Sequence record: NC_047885.1
Reading direction: 5' to 3' (one strand)
Source of the DNA: Escherichia phage chee24
Length of the DNA: 64,000 nucleotides
In this document: piece after piece, positions 1 through 58,404 of the stretch
Layout: the number at the start of each line of letters is the position of its first letter
How positions within the stretch are numbered: position 1 is the first letter of the stretch
Notes under the pieces: model-generated
The model's input: only the letters and a program-made list of their open reading frames with translations
What the model was told of the DNA's origin: nothing
Database searches by the model: none
Program-made: the position numbers and the translations under genes

Positions 1-16
1 ATTTCAACTTTAATTA

Positions 17-751
17 TTACGCAACTTTTAATTTCTCAATATATTGTTGCGGGCTGCAACTATATTCTGCGCGTTCTTCTTCGGTCATACCTTCCCAACA
101 TAATTGCAGGCGGTCGGCTAGGAACTGATAATCATTATCATCCTCAAGAGATTCATCAATAAAGGTTTCACCTATCAATGTCACGCCGATTGATAGAATA
201 TCGTTAACGGCTTGTGCGTCCAGCGTTTTAAATCCGTATGACGCTGCCGCTGATAGCACGCCTTTATGATCATCAATCATTGTAAAATCAGCGTTCGGAT
301 ATAATTGTTTGAATAGCCCAAAATAGTAACTTTTATAAACTGCGTCTTTGCTGTGGTATATCTCGCTAACTTTATCAGCCTCAAAATATTTGTGTAGTGT
401 ATCGCGGGAAAATACACGGATATTACTATCACCACGACCGCGCAAGCCTTGTTTGCGCAAATAATAATAGTCCGACTTGCTCATCAGTCGAGCGGTGCAA
501 ATAATGTTTAATGTATTTGCGTCATTCATGCACTGGCGCATATATGTAACAAGGGGCAATAAAGTATCTTGCATTATTAAATCATGTTTGCAGGCTTCAT
601 TTTTATACTTATTTAAATCTAAATTGCCCTCGCTATCAAAGCAAGGCGCTACACGATGGAAAGAATTAATGATAGTGCCGTCCAGATCCCAAATCATGAC
701 GCGGGAAATATGCGGGAAATTACGGGTAATATTCATTTTAACTTGATTCAT
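17..751 (-). CDS. dmp: 5'-deoxyribonucleotidase (Dmp-like HAD-family phosphatase)
   Basis: 244 aa ORF; N-terminal HAD motif IWDLDGTI; first gene of a T5-type pre-early block; RBS-like GGAGAA upstream. Confidence 0.7.
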   Translation of the reverse strand: MNQVKMNITRNFPHISRVMIWDLDGTIINSFHRVAPCFDSEGNLDLNKYKNEACKHDLIMQDTLLPLVTYMRQCMNDANTLNIICTARLMSKSDYYYLRKQGLRGRGDSNIRVFSRDTLHKYFEADKVSEIYHSKDAVYKSYYFGLFKQLYPNADFTMIDDHKGVLSAAASYGFKTLDAQAVNDILSIGVTLIGETFIDESLEDDNDYQFLADRLQLCWEGMTEEERAEYSCSPQQYIEKLKVA

Positions 752-831
752 TTTGTTACGTTCTCCATTAAAGGGATTAGATTAATTCAGCATTACCCGC
801 TATTTATAAGCGGGTAATAATAAATTAACTA

Positions 832-1224
832 TTAAAGACCATACGCCAACGCATCAGCAATAAAACTAATATCTTCACCAGATACACCGGAACGAATCCC
901 CGCACAAGTATATACCTTTGCGCTGGTCAATTGATCATCGAGGCAAGCGGGGCAAGGTGCGACTACTGCGAAAGCTAAACCAGATTTTACCGCGTCAATA
1001 ATGATGGTTTCTTGTTTCACCGTATCAACATAAACGCCTGCGGCCTTAATGTAACTACTTGCGCGGCCTTGCGTATAGGCAAAGGTAGTAACCTGCAAAG
1101 CGTCATTGAAATCTAATAGGTCATCAATAACGTGCCCCGCCTCGACGTGGTAACGTTCGCCATTAGAATAAACCAGAACAATTGAGGATTGAGCGCGATC
1201 GAATGGAATATTTTGCTTTTTCAT
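832..1224 (-). CDS. hypothetical protein (130 aa; HxE and PCxxC motifs)
   Basis: ORF co-directional with pre-early block; HVEAGH and PCPAC motifs, spacing atypical for a deaminase. Confidence 0.5.
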   Translation of the reverse strand: MKKQNIPFDRAQSSIVLVYSNGERYHVEAGHVIDDLLDFNDALQVTTFAYTQGRASSYIKAAGVYVDTVKQETIIIDAVKSGLAFAVVAPCPACLDDQLTSAKVYTCAGIRSGVSGEDISFIADALAYGL

Positions 1225-1262
1225 ATTTATAAAACTCCAATTAGTTTAATAAGGGGTTTAAT

Positions 1263-1553
1263 TTACTTGATAATAATTTGCATTTGATACGGCGTTAATT
1301 CACCGTTTACGGGTAAATTATTATCGCTTAGCCACTCATAAAAAGCACCATCATCATCAAAAGGGACAATATCGTTATCACGGGAATCGACGGAAATAAT
1401 ACCATCCGTATTAGTTTTGGCGGCTAGGATAGGCCCGAAGCTGTAAACTTTATCAGATTCCATTTCATCCGGTGAAATGAATACTTTTTCGTCCAATGTT
1501 TTGGGTAATGTAACTTTCATTTTTTGACTCCTATAATAGCGGCTATATTTCAA
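1263..1553 (-). CDS. hypothetical protein (96 aa)
   Basis: ORF in pre-early block, tight spacing with neighbours. Confidence 0.45.
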   Translation of the reverse strand: MKYSRYYRSQKMKVTLPKTLDEKVFISPDEMESDKVYSFGPILAAKTNTDGIISVDSRDNDIVPFDDDGAFYEWLSDNNLPVNGELTPYQMQIIIK

Positions 1554-1573
1554 GCCGCTAGGGTATTAATTAT

Positions 1574-3238
1574 TTACGCGAAAAATTTACCGTTTTTAAA
1601 GTCGATCAAAGTGCGCTGACCGTTTGCATAGGTAATAACATGCGTTTGCGTCCAGCTTGACGCGCCAACGTTGTAACCCATGTCCAGACTACCAGACACG
1701 CCAGCGGTGTATACGCCGCCGTAAATGCTGGCGGTATGAGTGTGCCCCGTGTTTAATTTGCCCAATTTCTTAAACTGTTTCGGATTGCCACGGCTCCCGT
1801 TTATGCCATTGTGACCGTGTACGCCGCATTCAATACCTGCAATCTTGAAAGATTGATCAGTGGTCAGAAAAATGGCGTTAAATTCACAACCTGCAACCTT
1901 GCGCAGCGCATAATCTAGCACGTTGAAAGTATCGTCATGATCACCGATTGCCGCGTAAATTGCAGCATTTAGGCGGTGATATAGTTCCGCGTTTGCTGGA
2001 TCGTCTTTAATGTTAGCATTACGATCATCTAACCAGCGGGATAGCGCCAGATCATGATTAGACTCAACAATGATTGTTTGCGAAAAATCGCGCTCCATTG
2101 ACTCCAGCACGCGACCGGTATCGATAAGATCATCCAGAACTTTATCACGTCCGGCGGCATACTGTTTTGCTAGGAATACACCCGAAGCGCGGTTGTGATG
2201 GTTGCGTGATGTAAAGTCGTGAACGTCATGGATAAACTGATATTTTGGTTTAAGAATATCAAGCAAGCTATTTTCGCCAGCCCATGACGCAACGGCGCAA
2301 GCGTCATCCAATTTTTCGGCGTGTACGTCGCCATATTGTAAACCTAAAACGTGCCCCGTTGTTTCATAACATCCGGCGGGAGTGGCGCAAACATTCAGAT
2401 CATAAAACACCCCGCTTTCGTCCATTGTTTCAAGCTGGCGCACAAAAAACTCACCGTCTTCGTCGAACTCAACAATCAGCGCCCCGAAATTATGCAGTGC
2501 TTCCGCTTTCTGTCCTGCTTTCTGCTGAATGTAGTTTTTAAGCGTTGCCGTTCCGGTTGAATACATACGGCGCACAATTTCACCTTTTAAAGCTGGAACG
2601 CTTTCGGCGGTAATTTTTGCCGCTCCAATTGCCAGACCTTCGATATTTAAAGCCGTTGCAGTTTCTGCAAATCCAGAAAGCGGATAATCTGCGGTTGGCA
2701 AAACATTAATTTCAGCCATGAAAGCAAAGCGGCGGTTATTTAAAAACACGTTTTTGCTGCAAATATATTTATCGAACGCGGAATCATATTTGATTCCGTC
2801 GGCGCCCTCGCCATTTTGAAAACCGTTTTTATTATAAATATACTTGCTAACTAGCAAATCAGCACCAATAAATTGGGCGTATTGTTCAAGCGAGGCTAAA
2901 AAGTTTTTATGAGGGAACGTATTATTCTGAATCGATGTAATAATAAAGCGTTTACCCTGCTTTACTTCCCATTGTTCAACCGTGCTAGAAACAATCCCCG
3001 CCGCTTCTGGGCGCTCATCGTTTTTAATGGCTTTTGCTACTTTCGCCGCTTTCGGTTTCGCTGGTTTATTTGCTTCCAGCCAATCGCAAATTGCGGTGGA
3101 GTGTTTTGTTGTATCATAAACCGCTTTAGAAATATCGTCGCACACTTCCAGCTTAGTAGCGCGCAGGCGTTTACCGTAGAAATTGAAATCAGCGGCCATT
3201 TTCAGGATAACGGTTTGTTTTTCTGCGGAAATAACCAT
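1574..3238 (-). CDS. A1: A1-like pre-early protein with calcineurin-like metallophosphoesterase domain
   Basis: 554 aa; phosphoesterase motifs GDVHAE and GHTHT; size and position match T5 A1. Confidence 0.75.
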   Translation of the reverse strand: MVISAEKQTVILKMAADFNFYGKRLRATKLEVCDDISKAVYDTTKHSTAICDWLEANKPAKPKAAKVAKAIKNDERPEAAGIVSSTVEQWEVKQGKRFIITSIQNNTFPHKNFLASLEQYAQFIGADLLVSKYIYNKNGFQNGEGADGIKYDSAFDKYICSKNVFLNNRRFAFMAEINVLPTADYPLSGFAETATALNIEGLAIGAAKITAESVPALKGEIVRRMYSTGTATLKNYIQQKAGQKAEALHNFGALIVEFDEDGEFFVRQLETMDESGVFYDLNVCATPAGCYETTGHVLGLQYGDVHAEKLDDACAVASWAGENSLLDILKPKYQFIHDVHDFTSRNHHNRASGVFLAKQYAAGRDKVLDDLIDTGRVLESMERDFSQTIIVESNHDLALSRWLDDRNANIKDDPANAELYHRLNAAIYAAIGDHDDTFNVLDYALRKVAGCEFNAIFLTTDQSFKIAGIECGVHGHNGINGSRGNPKQFKKLGKLNTGHTHTASIYGGVYTAGVSGSLDMGYNVGASSWTQTHVITYANGQRTLIDFKNGKFFA

Positions 3239-3336
3239 AATAATAAAACTCCATTAAAGGGATTAAAAAACGTTTGTTATTGGCAAATATTGCCAAATAT
3301 AACGCCGCTCATTTACAGCGTTATAATTTGCAACAT

Positions 3337-3582
3337 TTAACTAATTGGCACTAGGCTAGAACTAACACCACAAACAACGGCAGCAATAAAACAAAGTAAG
3401 CCCAAACGCTTTGCTAATTTAGATTTACGTTTAAAATAATACGAATCTAAATCATTTTGAAAATAAGCGAACAATAGGGAGGCCGCTACAATAAATAAGC
3501 CTAAAATTAGCGATTCAGTGGGAAAGAAAACCATTTTAATAACTCCAGTCAAAGGGAAATTATAGTGGGGAATATTCCCCAC
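3337..3582 (-). CDS. small hydrophobic membrane protein (81 aa)
   Basis: ORF with two hydrophobic segments; in pre-early operon. Confidence 0.45.
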   Translation of the reverse strand: MGNIPHYNFPLTGVIKMVFFPTESLILGLFIVAASLLFAYFQNDLDSYYFKRKSKLAKRLGLLCFIAAVVCGVSSSLVPIS

Positions 3583-3591
3583 TAATTAAAT

Positions 3592-3999
3592 TTATTCGCC
3601 TGCGGCTTGTTTTACTTCATCGGCAACGCCTAACAGTTGCGCCACGGCGTCCAGCGTTTCTAATTTTGCGCTTTCCAGCGATGCCAGATCGTCGGCGTCT
3701 TTGATAATGCCGGAATCAATAGCATGTTTAGCGATAACGCGCACATAGTGAGCCTTACGAATTGAACTGCCGCCGCCAACTTTGCGCGGCTTATCGCTTT
3801 TCTGGTACGCTTTTGCGCTGGTCAATTTTGAGCGAACAGACACGGGAGAAGCCGCACCAACTGTTTTTGCGATCTCTTTCAGGCCGTCGCTGTTGGCGAA
3901 CTCCAAGCCGTTTTCATTGATCAACTGTTGATACATGGTAACAGCCTGCTGGGTGTTTTCTTCATTCCAAGAGAATTTTGCGGTTTTAGCGTTAGTCAT
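3592..3999 (-). CDS. A2: A2-like pre-early protein (135 aa)
   Basis: 135 aa ORF immediately downstream of A1 on same strand; size and position match T5 A2; no catalytic motif seen. Confidence 0.55.
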   Translation of the reverse strand: MTNAKTAKFSWNEENTQQAVTMYQQLINENGLEFANSDGLKEIAKTVGAASPVSVRSKLTSAKAYQKSDKPRKVGGGSSIRKAHYVRVIAKHAIDSGIIKDADDLASLESAKLETLDAVAQLLGVADEVKQAAGE

Positions 4000-4097
4000 G
4001 ATTATAACTCCTATTGATTTAATTTAAGGGATAAGATTAACATAATGTTAATCGTTATATACCCCGAACTACTGGGGTATATAAAGTTAACACTAAA

Positions 4098-4349
4098 TTA
4101 TAAAACAGCTTCCCATTTTTCGTTGCGCTGGGCAACCTTTACAACGTCGCCGGATTTAACCCGAACGCTATAAATAGTTTTCCCGTTGTTACTCCGTTCC
4201 GTTTCAGCGTATACCGCATCAATTACATCAAACGGCATAAGCGCCGCGCCTTTAATGCGTTCGGCCTTTCCGGTTAATTCGTCCGTTTTAGTAACGAAAG
4301 GAATAAAAACGGATTGACCAATTTTTGGCGCATTAGTAACGTTTTTCAT
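4098..4349 (-). CDS. hypothetical protein (83 aa)
   Basis: ORF in pre-early block. Confidence 0.45.
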   Translation of the reverse strand: MKNVTNAPKIGQSVFIPFVTKTDELTGKAERIKGAALMPFDVIDAVYAETERSNNGKTIYSVRVKSGDVVKVAQRNEKWEAVL

Positions 4350-4577
4350 GGTATAAACTCCAGTTTATTCAGTGGATTGTTCCGCATTACCTGCTAGAAA
4401 GTAGCAGGTAATAAGCAACAATCCGCTCGCCATTATAATCAATTTAAAGAACTCCACTCAGGCCGCTATATCCCAGTTAGGGGGCGGGACACATTATGGT
4501 AAGTGCCGACCGTCAAATTTTATCAAGTTATCGCTCTCATCGAACTGGGTACATCTTAAAGCCTATCGGCTAGGGTG

Positions 4578-4781
4578 TCAAACAGTTTTTTGCAGTTTTT
4601 TATGATTTTCTTTCAGGTCAATCATAATATTGCGCCAGATCATTTCCAAACCTTGCTGGCGGCCTTTCTTGTACTGCATGAATCTGAATTTTACGGATTG
4701 TTGAGCTATTGTCAACAGCTTTCTAGTATTGCCATCCAATTTTTTGGCGGGTTTACCAGTGATTAATAAAGTTTGTTTCAT
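4578..4781 (-). CDS. hypothetical basic protein (67 aa)
   Basis: ORF with GGAGGG RBS; start ATG overlaps stop of upstream small ORF (ATGA). Confidence 0.45.
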   Translation of the reverse strand: MKQTLLITGKPAKKLDGNTRKLLTIAQQSVKFRFMQYKKGRQQGLEMIWRNIMIDLKENHKKLQKTV

Positions 4782-4936
4782 TCCACGCCCTCCAGTGCAT
4801 ACAGACCTTTACCATCATTACAGAATACAACCGCTTCTGAATGGTTGGCGTGATATTCGTTTGCCGCTTTTACCCATTGCTCGATCTTTTCGATCGTGTC
4901 ATGGGTTGCTGGATGATCGTTATATATTGTTTGCAT
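4778..4936 (-). CDS. hypothetical small protein (52 aa)
   Basis: Hand-translated ORF (below track cutoff) with AAGGAA RBS; translationally coupled to 4578-4781. Confidence 0.35.
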   Translation of the reverse strand: MQTIYNDHPATHDTIEKIEQWVKAANEYHANHSEAVVFCNDGKGLYALEGVE

Positions 4937-5372
4937 ATCTGCGATTCCTTATAATGAATAAGTTTACCGCCGATAGACTTTAAGATATACCCAATTTTTA
5001 AAGAGCGCGGCGGTAAACTTCCCGCCGTGTAGTTCGTCATTGCCGCCCTACGTGATAAATAATAGGGTATTCCCGAAAATGGCGCAACCTTATTTTTGTA
5101 AAGAAACGTAAAGAAAGCAACACGTTCGGCGCTCACCTAAGTTTAAAGGAAACGGGCGCGCGAATACCATAAAACCAAGCAGATAGGCAAGTAATTTTTT
5201 CATTTATATTTGCCTTGCCCTACTTGACAAAATCTAAAAAGCTCGTGGTAGCGATAAACGGCTTATCCCCTTATGATGGGATGGCTAAAAACTTCATCGC
5301 GTTCTAGGACGTTTTAGGCGCATTCTAGCCTTGTTGATAACTTATCCCCAAAAGCAAAAATGAAATTTTCCT

Positions 5373-5410
5373 AGTTATCCACTTGACTTTTATTTTCCAG
5401 TGGATAACTA
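5373..5410. repeat. inverted repeat containing two facing DnaA-box-like sequences
   Basis: AGTTATCCAC ... GTGGATAACT, perfect 10-bp arms. Confidence 0.6.
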
Positions 5411-5720
5411 CTTATTTTATAAAATTAATTAATTGACTTTTATTTGTTAGTGTGTATCGGAAAGATAGCAGACTAATAATTGTTAGGATTATAATCATGC
5501 TGGTGGATTGTAACAGCCTGAACTATTAGCAGACTATTAATCTCGGAAAATCTCATTAGCCAACTAACTATTTCATATTATATAATATACATATAAATTA
5601 ATGAGAAATAATAATTATAAGAAATCGTAACCGATAGAAATAATAACTACAAAAATAATCACCGTTATAATAATAACGATAAGAAACTATCGGCCTAAGT
5701 GAGAACCACTATCATTTAAG

Positions 5721-5813
5721 TTATTCACAAAGTTATCCACAGCACAAAATGATTTGACACGATAGGCGGCGATATAAGGACTTATCCACAGACTTATCCA
5801 CATGTTATCCTAC
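5721..5813. promoter_or_regulatory. cluster of five DnaA-box-like 9-mers
   Basis: TTATTCACA, TTATCCACA (x3), TTATCCTAC within about 90 bp. Confidence 0.6.
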
Positions 5814-5828
5814 TGTATATTTATACAG
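5813..5828. repeat. 16-bp perfect palindrome CTGTATATTTATACAG (copy 1)
   Basis: Exact palindrome adjacent to DnaA-box cluster; identical copy at 9368-9383. Confidence 0.7.
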
Positions 5829-6094
5829 GGTAAAAAGGTAGTGTTAACAACTGCAATCAATTTTAAGCGGCCTAAAACGCTTTCTAACGAGCAAAACGCT
5901 ATAGGGTAATATTAAAGTAAAGCCTCAACGCGTCGCCCTGGTGACTTCGCCGTGTTTTGCTCTTTACTATACCGCTGCGCGTTTAACATAAAAATAAGCG
6001 TTAGGCAAGGAAAATAAAAAGGTAAAATAATATTTGCCCCTAGAAAGAAAATACCTTTATCATTCACTCACCGATTAACGAGGGAGGCCAACAA

Positions 6095-7087
6095 ATGCGG
6101 CTATATAAACCAGATAACGCAACCGTCTTAAAAGGTGCGTTGCGTAACCTGCTGGATGGTAGCAGAACAACCAGCATTAAACATTTTGTTTTCAATATTG
6201 AAACACTTCATCGTAATTTTCTTGATGATTACGATGCTTATAATATGAATAGTTTTCTACCGTTATATAATCAAGGGGCAACGCTTGTTTTATATAATCA
6301 GGAATCTCACTTGCTTACTAGTCGAGGGCCAGATACTGATTTTATTATAGTGAAAGGCAGTACAGTAAAAGCCTATGATGCGGGGGCGGGCTTAGAAGTT
6401 TTCACGATAGAAAATTATGAGCCTTATGATAAGGATCTTTATGACGTAGAAAATTTTCTCGATTCATTTTGGCGTTATTTATCAATTGGGTGGAATCGAT
6501 CAGATTATCACGGGTATCGTTTTGCGGCTATAATGGCTTTTGATGATAACGGTAATTTTTTGCTACCGTCGGAATTATACCCGTATGTATATAATGATTT
6601 AATAGAGGAGGCTGGTTTTACTTTCTGGAAAGATGAAGATCAGCCTATTGACAACACGGAAAAACATGCTGTAAATTCTAACACTCAAAGCGTTAACACT
6701 CAAATTACTGAAAACAAAGGAAAAAATACCATGACCAAGATCGCTAATATCGTTGCCGCCAATAAGTCTGCTGTTGTAAATGCTGCAAAACTGGAAGCGG
6801 GTAAAATTGCATTAACTCAAATCACGAAAGTAGCGGCTAAAAAAGCGCCGTTTATGATTAAAGGTTATATTGATACGCCGATTGGTCGGGTAGTTATTGC
6901 CAACCTGCTGAGCGTAGCGGTTGACCAGTACGCCCCAGCTAACCAGAAAGCGAAAGCGGTAGCAGGTGCAGCTATGGAAGCGGCTATGTTAGAAATGGTG
7001 CAAAGTTTTAACATCGCTGAAATGATCGATGAAATGGTGAAAGGTATTGATATTTCTACTTTTACCACTAGCACCGAAAGCGAGTAA
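6095..7087 (+). CDS. hypothetical protein (330 aa, Ala/Lys-rich C-terminal region)
   Basis: ORF with GAGGGAGG RBS; first gene of rightward cassette bounded by inverted DnaA-box/palindrome repeats. Confidence 0.6.
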   Translation: MRLYKPDNATVLKGALRNLLDGSRTTSIKHFVFNIETLHRNFLDDYDAYNMNSFLPLYNQGATLVLYNQESHLLTSRGPDTDFIIVKGSTVKAYDAGAGLEVFTIENYEPYDKDLYDVENFLDSFWRYLSIGWNRSDYHGYRFAAIMAFDDNGNFLLPSELYPYVYNDLIEEAGFTFWKDEDQPIDNTEKHAVNSNTQSVNTQITENKGKNTMTKIANIVAANKSAVVNAAKLEAGKIALTQITKVAAKKAPFMIKGYIDTPIGRVVIANLLSVAVDQYAPANQKAKAVAGAAMEAAMLEMVQSFNIAEMIDEMVKGIDISTFTTSTESE

Positions 7088-7151
7088 TAATATTAAGCGG
7101 GGATTGTTACCCCGCTTTACTATTCCCTTGTTAATTAATAGGAGGCTAATT

Positions 7152-7646
7152 ATGCCAGAAGAAAAATATGGCTTCTCACTGGGAGAAGTGAGTACGGCTA
7201 AACATGATATGATTGTTTTAGTCGATTGCCATACCGGTTATTGCGGGGAAGGGAATACTGAGGAATATTTTGTTCCTGCTGGTACGGATCTCGACGCTTT
7301 CGCCCATGAAATGGCTGTTGATAATGCTTCTCGTTTTGGTAGCGATGGTTACGAAGACGAAGAAACGGGCGATTGGTATGAGAATGATAATGTATATGCA
7401 AGCCTTTATCATTATCAATTAAGTAAATCCGGCACATATGTAAACGGCGGTGATCCTATTAATTCCGTCATGAAATTAATTATTAAATATGGCGGCGTCG
7501 AGATAGTCGATAACAAAGCGGTAATATATGCAAACCGATTAAAACAGCTTGTTTATATCCCTGATAGTACCCGATGGGAGGAATATGCTGTTTTGCATGA
7601 TGAATTAAAACGATGTTTCAATATTGAAACCTTACAAGTAGTTTAA
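7152..7646 (+). CDS. hypothetical protein (164 aa)
   Basis: In-frame ATG with GGAGG RBS inside track ORF 7047-7646; followed by hairpin plus T-run terminator. Confidence 0.6.
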   Translation: MPEEKYGFSLGEVSTAKHDMIVLVDCHTGYCGEGNTEEYFVPAGTDLDAFAHEMAVDNASRFGSDGYEDEETGDWYENDNVYASLYHYQLSKSGTYVNGGDPINSVMKLIIKYGGVEIVDNKAVIYANRLKQLVYIPDSTRWEEYAVLHDELKRCFNIETLQVV

Positions 7647-7661
7647 TGTAAAGTTTTGTAA

Positions 7662-7690
7662 AGGCCGCCTCTTATGGTGGCCTTTTTTGT
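7662..7690 (+). terminator. rho-independent terminator
   Basis: Hairpin AGGCCGCC..GGTGGCCT followed by TTTTTT. Confidence 0.65.
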
Positions 7691-7754
7691 TATAATGCCT
7701 TTACACCGTTTAAGGACGGTTGAAAATTTTCCCAAAAAATTTTGGAGGCTTATA

Positions 7755-7985
7755 ATGGTTGCTTATTCTTCTTCTGACGCTCTTTTCACTGGAAAAGGCT
7801 GGGTATCAAATCGCTGGATCATTCAAGAAATGGTGCAAGAATATGGCATTGCTAAAACTTACACTACCATTCAGGCGCTTTATGATAATGATCAAATTGA
7901 TCAGCAAACGGCGGGCTTTTTGCTGGATACCCTAAAAGCGGAACACTGCACCAAAAAACAAGCTGCAAAAATTGTTTTAATGTAA
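7755..7985 (+). CDS. hypothetical protein (76 aa)
   Basis: In-frame ATG with GGAGG RBS inside track ORF 7674-7985. Confidence 0.5.
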   Translation: MVAYSSSDALFTGKGWVSNRWIIQEMVQEYGIAKTYTTIQALYDNDQIDQQTAGFLLDTLKAEHCTKKQAAKIVLM

Positions 7986-8181
7986 TTAATAAAGGGGGAT
8001 ACTATATCCCCCACTAACTAGAGAGAATAAAAATGGTTATTTTTCGAGCTATTCTAGCAGGTATCTTGGGCGCTATTTTATCACTTTTTGCAATAGCTTT
8101 CGGCGTTCACGCGGTTATTATTGGCGCGGGGATTGCCGTTTTTTCTTATCTGCTGGGCTGCATGAATAAAGGAGAATAAAA

Positions 8182-8394
8182 ATGATCCGCAACGTTTCCC
8201 TTGCCCGCTCCAAAGGCTTTAAGCTGGTGGACGTTAACACGTTTGAGCGGGAGGATTGTAAAATCGAATATGTAGCACGCAACAAAAATGCCTTTCGTGT
8301 TACAGAAAAGAAATTTGACAAGCGCGGCAACGTGATCGCTGAAACGGTTAAACACTTTGCCACCTTTTACGCTGCGTTTCGTGGGGTGTTATAA
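8182..8394 (+). CDS. hypothetical protein (70 aa)
   Basis: ORF with AAGGAG RBS. Confidence 0.5.
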   Translation: MIRNVSLARSKGFKLVDVNTFEREDCKIEYVARNKNAFRVTEKKFDKRGNVIAETVKHFATFYAAFRGVL

Positions 8395-8395
8395 A

Positions 8396-8740
8396 ATGGT
8401 TATTTATGAGGGCAATCGTTTTGTTGCTAATTGCCGTCCGGCATTACTAGCAAACTATTTAAATCAGGTTTCACCTGAATATAAAGGCGTCATTAATATT
8501 TACGAGGGTAAGGCGCACTATAAAATTAATGCGGTCGTTGCCCGTGAATTAGCATTTCAATTTTTGACCTTTGCATCTTGTGACGTTCAGGTTATGGGTG
8601 AAGCATTAATTGCAGAAAATGAAGATGATTTTATTAATATTTTCCGCAAGATATGCACCGAGCGCCTGATCATGAAAGGCGCATATATTCAATCCACTGC
8701 GGATAGCATTGAAACAGCGTTTCGAAAGGTGGCGCAATGA
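8396..8740 (+). CDS. hypothetical protein (114 aa)
   Basis: In-frame ATG overlapping upstream stop (coupled); inside track ORF 8357-8740. Confidence 0.5.
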   Translation: MVIYEGNRFVANCRPALLANYLNQVSPEYKGVINIYEGKAHYKINAVVARELAFQFLTFASCDVQVMGEALIAENEDDFINIFRKICTERLIMKGAYIQSTADSIETAFRKVAQ

Positions 8741-8913
8741 AAAAGTTTTTAATAGCTGGTATGTTTCCTTTGTTGCCTTATGTAATTTGCTGGGCTTTAT
8801 ACGCTCATGGTGCTAGTGTTCCCGGTGTGGCCTCGTTTGGTGTATCGGCTGGTTTTCTAACCGGACTATTGGCAAGCGTATATCTGCGCAAATAATTAAT
8901 AACGGGAGTTATT

Positions 8914-9108
8914 ATGAGCAATAAAATTGTTGTAACCAAAATCAGTACAATGGTTGACGTTTTTTATGTGCCCGATACGCCGGAAAACCGGCAAGCGGTC
9001 GAGCGTGGCGAGTATGATAAAGTGATTTATGATCACGATGGTTACTATCAACATTTGGTGGATTCCTACGGGGAGGGGGAAAAAATCACGCATCGACTAC
9101 CAGACTAG
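8914..9108 (+). CDS. hypothetical protein (64 aa)
   Basis: ORF with GGGAG RBS; last gene of rightward cassette. Confidence 0.45.
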   Translation: MSNKIVVTKISTMVDVFYVPDTPENRQAVERGEYDKVIYDHDGYYQHLVDSYGEGEKITHRLPD

Positions 9109-9367
9109 TAATCACGGGGGCGCAACTACCAGGGAGTGCCCCCAATTCTCAAATGAGAATGATTCTCATTTGACCGCGCCCGCGATGGTTAGCCTGCTAA
9201 TGATTAGGGTGTTACGTGTCGCCTTGTGTGATCGTTAGCAGGCTAACTAATTTTTAAGCCTCCTCCAATTTTGCCCTTGTTTTAGTATCCCCATCAAAAT
9301 TAAACGCGTTAGAATGCGATTCAGGACGTTTTAGGCCTATATTAGAATTATTCACTACATAGGAGTA

Positions 9368-9383
9368 CTGTATATTTATACAG
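9368..9383. repeat. 16-bp perfect palindrome CTGTATATTTATACAG (copy 2)
   Basis: Identical to 5813-5828; followed by reverse-orientation DnaA boxes. Confidence 0.7.
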
Positions 9384-9405
9384 TAGAATAACCTGGGGAT
9401 AAGTC

Positions 9406-9475
9406 TGTGGATAACGCCTCAAAATGGCTAGGATTCTGTCAAGTCAAATCGTGCTGTTGATAAGTCTGTGGATAA
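9406..9475. promoter_or_regulatory. two DnaA-box-like sequences in reverse orientation (TGTGGATAA)
   Basis: Each within the motif GATAAGTCTGTGGATAAC, mirroring 5781-5803. Confidence 0.6.
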
Positions 9476-9500
9476 CTTAAATAACAGTGTTTCTCACTTC

Positions 9501-9680
9501 CATTTTTAAATGCGAATCATTATCATTTGCATTTCACTGTCTAACTGATAATCATTTCACTTTTTAAATGAGAATCATTTCACTTTTTGAATAGTTCTCA
9601 TTCCGCTTTTTAAATGAGAATAATTATCATTCGCATTTCACTTTTTAAATGAGATTGATTCTCATTATCATTCGCATTTA
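9501..9680. repeat. AT-rich repeat array (five copies of CACTTTTTAAATGAGAAT-like unit with palindromic AATGAGAATCATT cores)
   Basis: Visible repeated units at roughly 20-40 bp intervals. Confidence 0.6.
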
Positions 9681-9709
9681 GGCGAGCAGGGCAATTGCCC
9701 TGCGCTTTT

Positions 9710-9932
9710 GTGCAAATCCGACATTGCTCCACGGGTGTTACGTGCGGGCGTGTATGTGCGAATCCGACAATTTTTGGTAGTGTGCGAATCCGACCCGAAA
9801 AATTTTTATAGTGTGCAAATCCGACAATGAATTTTCCCAAAAACTCCAGCAATCTCGAACTGCGTTCGAATCCTGTGGAATTAGCTAGAATATGTGCAAA
9901 TCCGACATGTGTTGAGATGTGCGAATCCGACA
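9710..9932. repeat. iteron array: six direct copies of GTGC(A/G)AATCCGAC(A/C)
   Basis: Copies at 9710, 9756, 9782, 9813, 9894, 9919; irregular spacing. Confidence 0.75.
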
Positions 9933-10261
9933 AGATTTTTGTGACTTCGATTGGAGGGTGTGTGATTGTATGGGTTTGAGGAGAAGGTGAGAGAGCGAGA
10001 GAAATTTTGGTACTAGAAGGGTGTGGGCGCAGGATTGGTGCGGAGCACCTGATTTGCGGGGATTTTGGGGAAGATGTAAGATAATTTGGGAAGATTTGAG
10101 ATAGGTGCAGAAAAAGTGAAATTTTATTAGCAAAATGGGGCAAAATAGCTTGACAAGTGAAAATTCCTGTGGCTCTAAAAACTCAGGCAATCATGGGCCT
10201 TCGGCCCGAAATAATGCTGCTATTTTCAGGGGAGTAAAAGTTCCTAAAAACTTAGGCGTTT

Positions 10262-10310
10262 GTGCAAATCCGACCATAAATTTCTAGAAATGCAGTGTGC
10301 AAATCCGACA
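10262..10310. repeat. two further copies of the GTGCAAATCCGAC iteron
   Basis: Copies at 10262 and 10297, each followed by a TTCTAGAAA or TTCTGGAAA palindrome-like motif. Confidence 0.7.
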
Positions 10311-10339
10311 GTAATTTCTGGAAATGTGTTTTCAAAAAA

Positions 10340-10440
10340 TGTCTTCTAGAAATAACCGCCCTCCCTATAACCGCCCTGTATTAACCGCCTAGTATATGTT
10401 CCTAGAAACTTAGGAGAACCGCCCACTAGAAGTGTGATAT
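10340..10440. repeat. AACCGCC short direct repeats (four copies) interleaved with TTCTAGAA-type palindromes
   Basis: ATAACCGCC, ATAACCGCC, TTAACCGCC, GAACCGCC seen within 100 bp. Confidence 0.55.
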
Positions 10441-10787
10441 TTCGTGAGAACTCTGGAGTTTCTAGGAAAGTGTTATGCCATCCTAGCAGATGAGCGACAA
10501 CAGGTGTATCATCTTGAATGTAAATTATGTGGACAAAAGTTTTACCTTTTATTTAAATAAAAGATCCCCCAATCTCGTAAGTCTGCTGCTCTAGGCGTTC
10601 AAGATCTGTATGCTAATCCCGTGAAAACTGCTGCAGAATACATCCTAACGCCAGGGGCGCTGGTGTACTCTTCGAGTTGGGATAGCAATAATCTTGTTGC
10701 CTAGAGCTAAAAACAGAAGTTGTTTTTAATCTATGAGATTATTATAACATGTGCCTTAATGAGTTGTCAAGAAGATTTTGTTAACGT

Positions 10788-11519
10788 TTATTCCTTCCGC
10801 TTGTATTTGAGAACGATACCCTTCGAGACCATGAAGAGGAAAGTTGCAAGATAGGAATGTGGGGATTTTAGCGCATCATAATCTACAGTTCCGAAAGAAC
10901 CTTCGCCAAATACCTCAGAGTTCTCAAATGTAGGAAGTAAACGTGCCAATCCTACAGCTCCTATAATCTTAAAGAATTGATCCCAGTCATTTAACATTGC
11001 TTTATGTGCAGACTGTAAGATTAATGGCATCTCTAGGTTCTTTTCGAGACATAGATGAACCTGCGCAATCGTAGAAGCAATCCCTAGCAACACTTCATCT
11101 TTTGTATAAGGGAATCCAGTATCTTTTCTTTGGAGTCTAGGAAGATGATCATATTCACAACGTTTAGGTGGGATGAACTTTTCCTCGGGATATAATTCTA
11201 ATGCAACTCTAACGTTTCCTTCTTTAAATACTGGAAGTTCCTGATCTGCAAAGACATGATATGAATCTGCCTTGAACCCTACAATCTTATCACCAACAGA
11301 ATTGATGATCTTTCTCATTGCAATATAAGAAGGGGATAGAGTTACGAATTTTTCTTCTTTATTATATTTAACAATTCCAGCTTCTGTATAAGCTGCGGGA
11401 TGAAACTCAGAACAGAATGCTACTGCATGAGCTTCATCAGGAGTTAGTTCAGAAACACATTTGCCGTCAGCATTCTTAGCCAGCTTAATAATAGTCTTTA
11501 AATTCTCACTAATACTCAT
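10788..11519 (-). CDS. hypothetical early protein (243 aa)
   Basis: ORF; first in a run of tightly packed leftward ORFs. Confidence 0.6.
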   Translation of the reverse strand: MSISENLKTIIKLAKNADGKCVSELTPDEAHAVAFCSEFHPAAYTEAGIVKYNKEEKFVTLSPSYIAMRKIINSVGDKIVGFKADSYHVFADQELPVFKEGNVRVALELYPEEKFIPPKRCEYDHLPRLQRKDTGFPYTKDEVLLGIASTIAQVHLCLEKNLEMPLILQSAHKAMLNDWDQFFKIIGAVGLARLLPTFENSEVFGEGSFGTVDYDALKSPHSYLATFLFMVSKGIVLKYKRKE

Positions 11520-57738: not shown

Positions 57739-57897
57739 TTAAATCTGTATATACACATCCCGATGATATATTTGTATGGGCGGATGGTAGTTGGTGCTAT
57801 CGATGTGAGCTATGGGAAATGGACTATAAATCCGATGACTATGGTGTCATATATGTTGATACGGTTGAGTATGATACGTTCTTAGAAAGGGACAAAA

Positions 57898-58404
57898 ATG
57901 GAAATAAGTAATACTCCAATTATTTTTCTAGATATTGATGGGGTGCTCAACTCTAGCATCTCCCATCACCATGCACCTGATGATGAGAAGATTTTCTTCG
58001 GAAGTGACTGGGTTTTTAAGCCGCTTCTCAAGGCTTTTCAGGACTTTATTCGTCCTTCTCCAATAATGATTGTTGGGGTATCTTCATGGTTCTCTGTCAG
58101 GAATGAGATGGAGAACGTTCAGATTATGACCGGATTAGATCTTATCGATCGTTTTCTTGGTACAACGGATTTTACTGGTGGTGGGCTATCTAGGGGTAAT
58201 TCTGTTCTTCGCTTCGTTGAAAAGCATAAGCTCAAACATTGGTGTGTGCTGGATGACGCTGGTGCTATGATGTATCAGTATCCAACGGTTATAGTCAACG
58301 GTAGAACTGGAATAAATCTTCAAGATTTAAGAGCTGTTAGCTATATGTTAGAATTTAGTCCAGATCTTGAAATGTGTAAAGCCCTACAACAATTTAAGGT
58401 GTAA
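57898..58404 (+). CDS. HAD-superfamily phosphatase-like protein
   Basis: 168 aa; N-terminal motif IIFLDIDGVLN (DxDG) and C-terminal WCVLDD. Confidence 0.6.
   Translation: MEISNTPIIFLDIDGVLNSSISHHHAPDDEKIFFGSDWVFKPLLKAFQDFIRPSPIMIVGVSSWFSVRNEMENVQIMTGLDLIDRFLGTTDFTGGGLSRGNSVLRFVEKHKLKHWCVLDDAGAMMYQYPTVIVNGRTGINLQDLRAVSYMLEFSPDLEMCKALQQFKV

What the first reader, a model, noticed from the sequence alone, without database searches (positions are those of the whole stretch)
9501..9680. AT-rich repeat array with palindromic AATGAGAATCATT cores
Five copies of a unit related to CACTTTTTAAATGAGAATCATT occur within about 180 bp. Several contain GAATCATTATCATT, which resembles half of the enterobacterial Fur-box consensus as recalled. 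This may be chance in AT-rich DNA or a binding array for a host or phage protein.
Basis: seen in the sequence. Interest (0 to 1): 0.4.

Follow-up and report, generated by a model that had tools for sequence, protein, structure and literature searches.

The report
Fur-box array in T5 injection-stop region
The AT-rich repeats are the long-known but unexplained repeats beside the DNA "injection stop" of a T5-like phage, and by sequence they are a dense cluster of top-quality binding sites for the host iron regulator Fur, which gives a directly testable lead on how T5 pauses DNA entry.

Summary
The repeat array is real. There are six 23-nt-register units at 9495-9660, against zero expected by chance.

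The window is the left 64 kb of a T5-like phage (100% identical to pork27/chee24). The array is the already annotated DRC/DRE repeats and palindromes E-I of T5 "Repeat Region 3". This region lies in the untranslated end of the left terminal repeat, next to the candidate injection stop signal and the 7.9% nick. Its function is unknown in the literature I could search.

I built a Fur matrix de novo from 15 E. coli K-12 Fur-regulated promoters. The five best sites in the 64 kb all fall at 9152 and 9509-9672, at 20.8-27.2 bits, as good as the best chromosomal operators. They overlap in the 6-bp register typical of Fur. In 5000 shuffles, no shuffle had more than one site of at least 20 bits; four were observed.

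All 38 enterobacterial T5-like loci keep the cluster, and variation sits at positions that carry little Fur information. Unrelated myoviruses (phi92, Phapecoctavirus) carry the same cluster. Serratia, Proteus and Vibrio relatives lack it.

A near-consensus LexA box and DnaA-box pairs sit immediately to the left.

Best reading: a host Fur-binding array. Binding and any role in the injection stop are inferred, not shown.

The parts
9495..9680 (.). The repeat array: six units in 23/35-nt register (9495-9521, 9530-9556, 9553-9579, 9576-9602, 9599-9625, 9634-9660). It equals T5 direct repeats C1-C4, the 66-bp DRE1/DRE2 repeats and palindromes E-I.
   Evidence: homology to T5 AY587007 9468-9637 and its GenBank annotation
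9509..9533 (.). Composite Fur-like operator A: two overlapping 19-mers 6 bp apart. AATGCGAATCATTATCATT scores 24.1 bits and AATCATTATCATTTGCATT scores 17.9 bits.
9544..9602 (.). Three single units carrying weaker Fur-like sites: 9544 (11.2 bits), 9567 (13.1 bits) and 9584 (8.5 bits, core inverted).
9613..9637 (.). Composite Fur-like operator B: AATGAGAATAATTATCATT scores 27.2 bits (the best site in the 64 kb) and AATAATTATCATTCGCATT scores 19.2 bits, 6 bp apart.
9648..9678 (.). Composite Fur-like operator C: three overlapping 19-mers at 6-bp steps, scoring 22.1, 20.8 and 10.9 bits.
9152..9170 (.). Isolated perfect 9-1-9 palindrome AATGAGAATGATTCTCATT, a Fur-like site of 25.6 bits, 357 bp left of operator A. 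A site at this offset is kept in most T5-like loci, but not in T5 itself.
9366..9385 (.). TACTGTATATTTATACAGTA (T5 palindrome D), a 19/20 match to the LexA SOS-box consensus. An identical CTGT-N8-ACAG core lies at 5813-5828 in Repeat Region 2.
   Evidence: the consensus is from established knowledge
9394..9475 (-). Two DnaA-box pairs separated by 3 bp within each pair: TGGGGATAA-GTC-TGTGGATAA at 9394-9414 and TGTTGATAA-GTC-TGTGGATAA at 9455-9475. This is T5 IRD'-spacer-IRC'.
   Evidence: Davison preprint
9686..9704 (+). G+C-rich hairpin GCAGGGCAATTGCCCTGC followed by GCTTTTG (T5 palindrome J). CCCTGCGC at 9697-9704 is homologous to the site that T5 GenBank annotates as 'major single-stranded nick 1, 7.9%'.
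9710..9932 (+). Six copies of GTGC(A/G)AATCCGACA (T5 direct repeat D), with further copies at 10261 and 10297 beyond the end of the terminal repeat (about 9967).

Best explanation
The array is a cluster of operators for the host ferric uptake regulator Fur, embedded in the conserved untranslated right end of the T5-type terminal repeat. Three composite operators (9509-9533, 9613-9637, 9648-9678) each offer 2-3 overlapping 19-bp Fur sites in 6-bp register. Three weaker single units lie between them, and one isolated perfect palindrome lies at 9152. What is shown is sequence-level identity with Fur operators, conservation of that identity, and its recurrence in unrelated phages. What is inferred: when this stretch enters the cell, which is the last part of the first-step-transfer DNA to do so, Fe-Fur dimers coat about 190 bp. 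Together with LexA at palindrome D and DnaA at the two box pairs, they would build a large host-protein/DNA complex at the boundary where T5 DNA entry pauses. The downstream role of that complex is a weaker inference. It could hold or gate the DNA at the injection stop. It could instead insulate the boundary of the terminal repeat.
For: (1) A palindromic 19-bp matrix was learned de novo, from phage-independent seeds, on 15 E. coli K-12 Fur-regulated promoter regions. It converged on AATGATAATNATTATCATT.
(2) The five best scores in the 64-kb window are at 9613 (27.2 bits), 9152 (25.6), 9509 (24.1), 9648 (22.1) and 9654 (20.8). The natural training sites span 11.6-27.8 bits.
(3) In 5000 dinucleotide shuffles of 9490-9685 the maximum score averaged 8.1 bits (sd 3.4). 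P(max >= 24 bits) was 4e-4, and no shuffle had more than one site of at least 20 bits, against four observed.
(4) The sites come in pairs or triplets 6 bp apart. Chen et al. 2007 (PMC2189734) describe this as the signature of Fur clusters.
(5) The result survives retraining without the four promoters that contain ATTCTCATT half-sites. The array still holds the top three sites and six of the top ten, seven with the 9152 palindrome.
(6) All 38 A1-anchored enterobacterial T5-like loci have 3-7 sites of at least 15 bits within 250 bp, except L036, whose flank is too short to reach the region. None of the 26 distant A1 loci has such a cluster.
(7) Across 28 distinct arrays, column entropy is anticorrelated with Fur-matrix information (Spearman -0.43, p = 9e-4). 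Variation concentrates at the centre and at positions +/-4 and +/-5.
(8) The same clusters occur in non-coding regions of unrelated myoviruses: five sites of 19.9-27.6 bits in phi92 and four of 17.9-24.7 bits in nieznany. A2 homologues were found only in T5-type phages.
(9) Palindrome arms show almost no compensatory change: 2, 0 and 0 double-change cells against 23, 40 and 37 complementarity-breaking cells. This fits independently conserved half-sites.
(10) The neighbours are also host-protein sites: a LexA-like box and DnaA boxes.
Against: There are no binding data. Each unit also conserves a non-Fur spacer (TTCAC-TTTTT-AA) and a 23-nt period, which chromosomal Fur operators do not have. Something beyond Fur therefore constrains the sequence. 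C at matrix position 5 (AATGCGAAT) is common in the phages but makes up only 8% of the E. coli model. No promoter signal rises above shuffles, whereas 83% of E. coli Fur clusters overlap a promoter. Serratia phage Slocum keeps the DnaA boxes, the nick motif and the D repeats but has a different repeat in place of the array. Proteus and Vibrio relatives lack the array too. So it is not indispensable to the conserved core of the region. The aligned phages are related, so the entropy test overstates independence. From my own knowledge, no T5 host-factor study reports dependence on fur.
Confidence: 0.6

Rival explanations
1. The units are binding sites for a phage-encoded protein, and the likeness to Fur boxes is incidental. 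Candidates are the pre-early DNA-binding protein A2, or A1, both of which are needed to restart DNA transfer.
For: The array sits at the candidate injection stop signal, and A1/A2 act there genetically. The conserved non-Fur spacer and the strict 23-nt register suggest a constraint beyond Fur. C at position 5 departs from the E. coli Fur model.
Against: The same motif clusters occur in Stephanstirmvirinae myoviruses, while A2 homologues were detected only in T5-type phages. The motif does not co-vary with A1 divergence from 97% down to 66% identity. The D repeats, not this array, are the element kept where the array is lost (Slocum). That makes the D repeats the better candidate for a phage-protein site.
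Confidence: 0.15
2. The array works as DNA structure. Its palindromes would extrude hairpins or cruciforms, or phased A-tracts would bend the DNA, and this would mechanically stall passage through the tail or envelope channel next to the 7.9% nick.
For: The single strand folds far better than shuffles (-33.2 against -15.3 kcal/mol, z = -6.6). The region is dense in palindromes and lies 17-25 bp from the nick motif. Davison proposes knots or bending in this region.
Against: Palindromy is expected for operators of a dimeric protein. Across 28 arrays the arms show 2, 0 and 0 compensatory cells against 23, 40 and 37 cells that break complementarity. Variation tracks Fur-matrix information, not stem pairing. 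From my own knowledge, nick-less T5 mutants still show two-step transfer.
Confidence: 0.12
3. The array is part of a replication origin or a packaging / terminal-repeat processing site, with host-factor sites acting as architectural elements, as IHF sites do in lambda cosB.
For: The layout (DnaA boxes, then an AT-rich repeat block, then iteron-like D repeats) resembles iteron origins. The D repeats straddle the end of the terminal repeat. The phi92-type clusters also sit beside iteron-like repeats.
Against: No initiator gene is adjacent. According to the literature cited, T5 origins were mapped near the middle of the genome. This reading is compatible with Fur binding rather than opposed to it.
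Confidence: 0.08
4. The array is a chance or neutral AT-rich tandem repeat with no function.
For: The region is AT-rich (28% G+C), and unit copy number varies between phages.
Against: Zero of 100 shuffles produce even one match to the unit. The array is conserved across phages whose adjacent coding DNA is not conserved. Fur scores lie far outside the shuffle distribution.
Confidence: 0.02

Closest known systems
Bacteriophage T5 Repeat Region 3: direct repeats C and E and palindromes E-I, next to the injection stop signal (Heusterspreute 1987; Wang 2005, GenBank AY587007; Davison 2015/2020)
   Same: It is the same element by homology: 92% identity over 341 bp to T5. It has the same neighbours in the same order: palindrome D, the DnaA-box inverted repeats, the array, palindrome J with the 7.9% nick, then the D repeats.
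   Different: None as an element; only the reading differs. The literature I could search treats the block as repeats and palindromes of unknown function and never mentions Fur or LexA. Here the repeats resolve into Fur-type operators.
Chromosomal Fur operator clusters of E. coli, for example yoeA, fhuF, entC and fecI (Chen et al. 2007, PMC2189734)
   Same: The 19-bp sites score in the same range. They overlap at 6-bp steps, and several sites together cover tens to more than 100 bp. The ATTCTCATT half-site is found in the natural gpmA, ryhB and fhuA sites.
   Different: No overlapping promoter was detected. The operators are embedded in a 23/35-nt tandem unit with a conserved spacer. The location is a phage terminal repeat rather than an iron-uptake promoter. 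Binding is untested.
Fur-like motif clusters in non-coding regions of Stephanstirmvirinae phages (phi92, Phapecoctavirus such as nieznany)
   Same: The motif is the same, including an identical 28-mer TAAATGCGAATCATTATCATTTGCATTT. There are 4-5 strong sites within about 110 bp, in a long non-coding region beside other AT-rich repeats.
   Different: The phage family is unrelated. No LexA-like or DnaA boxes lie nearby. There is no 23-nt unit structure. Function is also unknown.
Iteron-type plasmid or phage-plasmid replication origins (P1 oriR, pSC101)
   Same: DnaA boxes, an AT-rich repeat block and a run of short direct repeats appear in that order.
   Different: No adjacent initiator gene is present. 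T5 origins are mapped elsewhere. The AT-rich block is made of Fur-type palindromes, not 13-mer unwinding repeats.
Host-factor sites in phage DNA-handling signals (IHF sites in lambda cosB; from established knowledge)
   Same: This is the same idea of a phage cis-acting DNA signal built partly from binding sites for abundant host DNA-binding proteins.
   Different: The proteins are different (Fur, LexA and DnaA instead of IHF). The IHF consensus is absent here. The process served is not established.

Membership tests
T5 terminal-repeat Repeat Region 3 (DRC/DRE/palindromes E-I; candidate injection stop signal) | Lies in the untranslated right end of the left terminal repeat of a T5-like genome | tested here: met
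   The window is 100% identical to T5-like pork27/pork29. The terminal repeat is annotated 1-9967. No conserved ORF covers the array.
T5 terminal-repeat Repeat Region 3 (DRC/DRE/palindromes E-I; candidate injection stop signal) | Sequence homology to T5 9468-9637, with the same flanking elements in the same order | tested here: met
   92% identity to AY587007 over 341 bp. The DnaA-box pairs lie to the left, and palindrome J, the nick motif and the D repeats lie to the right.
T5 terminal-repeat Repeat Region 3 (DRC/DRE/palindromes E-I; candidate injection stop signal) | Acts in cis to stop first-step DNA transfer | not testable with these tools
   This needs infection experiments. Even for T5 the exact signal is not mapped.
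Fur operator cluster | 19-bp sites matching a Fur weight matrix at the level of proven sites | tested here: met
   Scores are 20.8-27.2 bits, against 11.6-27.8 bits for the E. coli sites chosen in the training promoter regions. The result is robust to retraining.
Fur operator cluster | Scores above composition-matched background | tested here: met
   5000 dinucleotide shuffles gave a mean maximum of 8.1 bits (sd 3.4). No shuffle had more than one site of at least 20 bits, against four observed.
Fur operator cluster | Overlapping sites in 6-bp register (multi-dimer binding) | tested here: met
   Sites lie at 9509/9515, 9613/9619 and 9648/9654/9660. The criterion comes from Chen et al. 2007.
Fur operator cluster | Overlap with a sigma-70 promoter (true of 83% of E. 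coli clusters) | tested here: not met
   Only weak 9/12 matches were found. Five promoter-like sites were found in 9000-10900, against 4.9 expected from shuffles. This is a usual feature, not a defining one.
Fur operator cluster | Binding of Fe/Mn-Fur in vitro or in vivo | not testable with these tools
   Requires gel shift, footprinting, a Fur titration assay or ChIP.
Iteron-type replication origin | Iterons adjacent to the gene of their initiator protein | tested here: not met
   No such ORF flanks 9100-10780. The 177-aa ORF at 9610-10143 is not conserved in T5.
IHF binding site | Core consensus WATCAANNNNTTR | tested here: not met
   There are five matches in the 64 kb and none in 9100-9720.
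Structured RNA or known RNA family | Match to an Rfam covariance model | tested here: not met
   The only hit was noise: 16 bits against a gathering score of 627.

The most novel reading that the evidence does not exclude
The injection stop signal of T5-type phages would be a nucleoprotein lock made of host regulators. Fur on this array, LexA on palindrome D and DnaA on the box pairs would seize the last-entering part of the first-step DNA and so cause or stabilise the pause. Phage genome delivery would then be gated by host transcription factors, and possibly by iron status. The same Fur module would have been adopted independently by phi92-type myoviruses.
Probability: 0.15. Interest if true: 0.85.

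Novelty: new member of a known kind. Interest (0 to 1): 0.55.

Why it matters
[quoted passage not shown] If most of that complexity is a set of operators for three named host proteins (Fur, LexA, DnaA), the question becomes testable with standard tools: fur, lexA and dnaA hosts, a Fur titration assay, footprinting, and operator-scrambled phage. The same Fur-type cluster in an unrelated family of large virulent coliphages suggests a more general, unrecognised use of the host iron regulator by lytic phages. If Fur does not bind, the result still documents a strongly conserved cis element.

Tried and rejected
- **Iteron plasmid origin.** This was my first impression from the DnaA boxes, AT-rich block and iterons. 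I dropped it because there is no initiator gene, the window is a T5-like phage, and the literature maps origins elsewhere.
- **Promoter cluster or Fur-regulated promoter.** The promoter scan was not above shuffles.
- **Small RNA.** Rfam gave only noise.
- **Coding.** The 177-aa minus-strand ORF at 9610-10143, annotated in MF431731, is broken up in T5.
- **IHF.** No consensus match.
- **Cruciform or hairpin selection.** Folding z = -6.6, but almost no compensatory changes.
- **BLAST of the array against E. coli genomes and plasmids**, to catch natural Fur operators. This gave only insignificant short hits and was uninformative.
- **Terminal-repeat annotation for the phi92-type cluster.** One record has only an unexplained 38-bp repeat feature.
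- **Davison 2015 and the supplement of Chen et al. 2007.** Neither could be read. I therefore cannot exclude that an older subscription paper noted the Fur likeness.
- **Aerobactin (iucA) operator.** My recollection that it contains AATGAGAATCATT was not verified.

Full report
**Observation**

The sequence at 9495-9680 contains six copies of a unit related to CATTTCACTTTTTAAATGAGAATCATT. They start at 9495, 9530, 9553, 9576, 9599 and 9634, with spacings of 35, 23, 23, 23 and 35 nt. They group into two 66-nt super-repeats, 9491-9556 and 9595-9660. TRF reports periods of 23 and 35 nt.

The 13-mer core with at most 2 mismatches has 16 matches in the 64 kb, and 11 of them lie in 9152-9666; 4.1 were expected.

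**What the window is**

Megablast shows the window is 100% identical to five T5-like phages (pork27, pork29 and others; Tequintavirus chee24). It starts at the left genome end, and the left terminal repeat is annotated 1-9967.

The T5 GenBank record AY587007 annotates the homologous stretch (92% identity) as follows:
- direct repeat C, copies 1-4;
- palindromes E, F, G, H and I;
- then palindrome J;
- then 'major single-stranded nick 1, 7.9%';
- then direct repeat D, copies 1-9.

Davison's preprint (10.1101/866236) calls this Repeat Region 3. It lists the 66-bp DRE1/DRE2 repeats and the adjacent DnaA-box inverted repeat as the likely injection stop signal. It notes their extreme conservation and states that their function cannot be guessed.

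[quoted passage not shown] The repeat array as such is therefore already known and annotated. Its function is not known.

**The Fur test**

I fetched 15 promoter regions of Fur-regulated E. coli K-12 genes. They were chosen from the footprinted or gel-shifted sites in Chen et al. 2007 (PMC2189734). I then ran a palindromic 19-bp expectation-maximisation search from 147 seeds. The best-ranked seeds reached essentially the same likelihood (143.3), and the refined top seed gave the motif AATGATAATNATTATCATT. No phage sequence entered the model.

Scanning the 64-kb window gave these five best sites:

| Position | Score (bits) |
|---|---|
| 9613 | 27.2 |
| 9152 | 25.6 |
| 9509 | 24.1 |
| 9648 | 22.1 |
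| 9654 | 20.8 |

- The E. coli training sites range from 11.6 to 27.8 bits.
- Seven of the 13 sites of at least 15 bits lie in 9152-9672.
- Sites occur in 6-bp register at 9509/9515, 9613/9619 and 9648/9654/9660. Chen et al. describe this arrangement as typical of Fur clusters.

In 5000 dinucleotide-preserving shuffles of 9490-9685, the maximum score averaged 8.1 bits (sd 3.4). P(max >= 24 bits) was 4e-4. No shuffle had more than one site of at least 20 bits, against four observed.

I retrained without the four promoters whose chosen sites contain ATTCTCATT. The array still holds the top three sites and six of the top ten, or seven counting the 9152 palindrome. A plain count against the classical consensus gives the same picture.

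**Comparative evidence within T5-type phages**

Loci anchored on the A1 protein fall into two groups:
- All 38 loci with A1 at 66-97% identity have 3-7 sites of at least 15 bits within 250 bp, several kb upstream of A1. The one exception is L036, whose upstream flank is too short to reach the region.
- None of the 26 loci with A1 at 36-49% identity has any site of at least 18 bits.

Other relatives were checked separately:
- Klebsiella Sugarlandvirus phages keep 3-5 sites.
- Serratia phage Slocum keeps the DnaA boxes, the nick motif and the D repeats, but has a different two-copy repeat in place of the array.
- Proteus phage 1 and two Vibrio T5-type phages lack the array.

An alignment of 28 distinct arrays shows gain and loss of units. 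At the three strong operators, variation is concentrated at positions that carry little Fur information: the centre and positions +/-4 and +/-5. The Spearman correlation between column entropy and matrix information is -0.43 (p = 9e-4). The sequences are related, so this p-value is optimistic.

**Evidence from unrelated phages**

A sensitive BLAST of the array also hit Stephanstirmvirinae myoviruses. In phi92 and in Phapecoctavirus nieznany, a 0.8-1.3 kb non-coding region carries strong sites within about 110 bp. Phi92 has five (19.9-27.6 bits) and nieznany has four (17.9-24.7 bits). They include a 28-mer identical to window 9507-9534.

The region is conserved in about 140 such phages. It has no LexA-like or DnaA boxes. 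A2 homologues were detected only in T5-type phages.

The perfect palindrome AATGAGAATNATTCTCATT occurs in more than 119 viral contigs. Several of these have clusters and are unrelated to either family by megablast. A motif that works in unrelated phage backgrounds argues for a host factor rather than a T5-specific protein.

**Surroundings**

From left to right, the untranslated block reads:
1. The Fur-like palindrome at 9152-9170.
2. A long inverted repeat with a T-run at 9188-9257.
3. TACTGTATATTTATACAGTA at 9366-9385. This is T5 palindrome D and a 19/20 match to the LexA SOS-box consensus (the consensus is from established knowledge).
4. Two DnaA-box pairs at 9394-9414 and 9455-9475.
5. The array at 9495-9680.
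6. The palindrome J hairpin and nick motif at 9686-9704.
7. Six D repeats at 9710-9932.
8. The end of the terminal repeat at about 9967.
9. Two more D repeats.

An identical LexA-like core and four consensus DnaA boxes lie at 5721-5828 in Repeat Region 2. LexA-like and DnaA boxes are kept more widely than the Fur array, including in the Vibrio and Proteus relatives. The region therefore looks like an assembly of operators for abundant host DNA-binding proteins.

**Rivals tested**

- Promoter-like matches are not above shuffles.
- Rfam gives nothing.
- The annotated 177-aa ORF is not conserved in T5.
- The IHF consensus is absent.
- The single strand folds much better than shuffles (z = -6.6). 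However, the palindrome arms show 2, 0 and 0 compensatory cells against 23, 40 and 37 complementarity-breaking cells. Selection therefore appears to act on half-sites, not on stems.
- Against a pure Fur reading: the conserved spacer, the 23-nt register, the frequent C at position 5, the lack of a promoter, and the loss of the array in Slocum.

**Mechanism**

Shown:
- the array is indistinguishable by sequence from a multi-dimer Fur operator cluster;
- that property is conserved;
- it recurs in unrelated phages.

Inferred, with about 0.6 confidence: host Fur binds it in the infected cell.

More weakly inferred, with about 0.15-0.25 confidence: together with LexA and DnaA, this complex takes part in holding or gating the DNA at the first-step boundary. 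The 7.9% point falls inside or just right of the array. Alternatively, the complex acts as an architectural or insulating element at the end of the terminal repeat.

I consider Fur titration to derepress host genes unlikely. T5 destroys host DNA within minutes.

**Novelty**

The repeats themselves are known. The Fur reading, and in passing the LexA reading of palindrome D, was not found in any searchable paper. I could not read the 1987 and 2015 papers.

I file the array as a previously unrecognised member of a known kind, a Fur operator cluster, in an unusual place. Interest is moderate to high, because it turns an old open question into simple experiments.

Noticed in passing
window 9366-9385 and 5811-5830: TACTGTATATTTATACAGTA (T5 'palindrome D') is a 19/20 match to the LexA SOS-box consensus, and an identical CTGT-N8-ACAG core lies in Repeat Region 2. 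One or two such boxes occur in nearly all T5-like loci and also in the Vibrio and Proteus relatives. I found no mention of LexA in the searchable T5 literature.
   Followed up: partly
L003 1486-1597 (phi92 FR775895.2, about 136991-137102); L004 1480-1585 (nieznany NC_052659.1, about 57847-57952): Unrelated Stephanstirmvirinae myoviruses carry a cluster of 4-5 strong Fur-like sites in a 0.8-1.3 kb non-coding region. The cluster sits next to iteron-like AT-rich repeats and a TTGACA...TATACT promoter followed by a G+C-rich stretch with no Rfam match. The region is conserved in about 140 phage records.
   Followed up: partly
L205 1600-1760 (Serratia phage Slocum MN095770.1): Slocum keeps the DnaA-box pairs, the CCTGCGC nick motif and the D repeats, but the Fur-like array is replaced by two copies of AATAACGTAAGGTGAYTAATGATT. 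The array therefore behaves as an exchangeable module.
   Followed up: partly
window 10741-10770, minus strand: A perfect extended sigma-70 promoter (TTGACA, 18 nt, TG-TATAAT; 12/12) points leftwards from just beyond the first early genes. It faces 1 kb of non-coding DNA that holds the D repeats and then the array. Its transcript and purpose are unknown.
   Followed up: no
window 9610-10143, minus strand: The 177-aa ORF annotated as a hypothetical protein in MF431731 (P27_0015) overlaps the array and the D repeats. It is broken into 57- and 87-aa pieces in T5, so it is probably not a gene.
   Followed up: yes
viral contigs L150 (1810, 1840, 1870), L166, L090, L170, L117 and L112: The perfect palindrome AATGAGAATNATTCTCATT occurs in more than 119 IMG/VR contigs. 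Several contigs unrelated to T5 or phi92 have clusters, including one with three identical copies 30 bp apart and one with 59% G+C.
   Followed up: partly
window 124-142 and 1266-1284: There are two further Fur-like sites: ACTGATAATCATTATCATC (20.0 bits) inside the dmp coding region near the left genome end, and CTTGATAATAATTTGCATT (17.0 bits) between two small pre-early ORFs. A site at a matching distance downstream of A1 recurs in many T5-like loci.
   Followed up: no
window 10261-10326 and 10350-10420: Just beyond the terminal repeat lie a 34-nt tandem repeat containing two more D repeats and several copies of AACCGCC(C). These are further unexplained repeats of Repeat Region 3.
   Followed up: no
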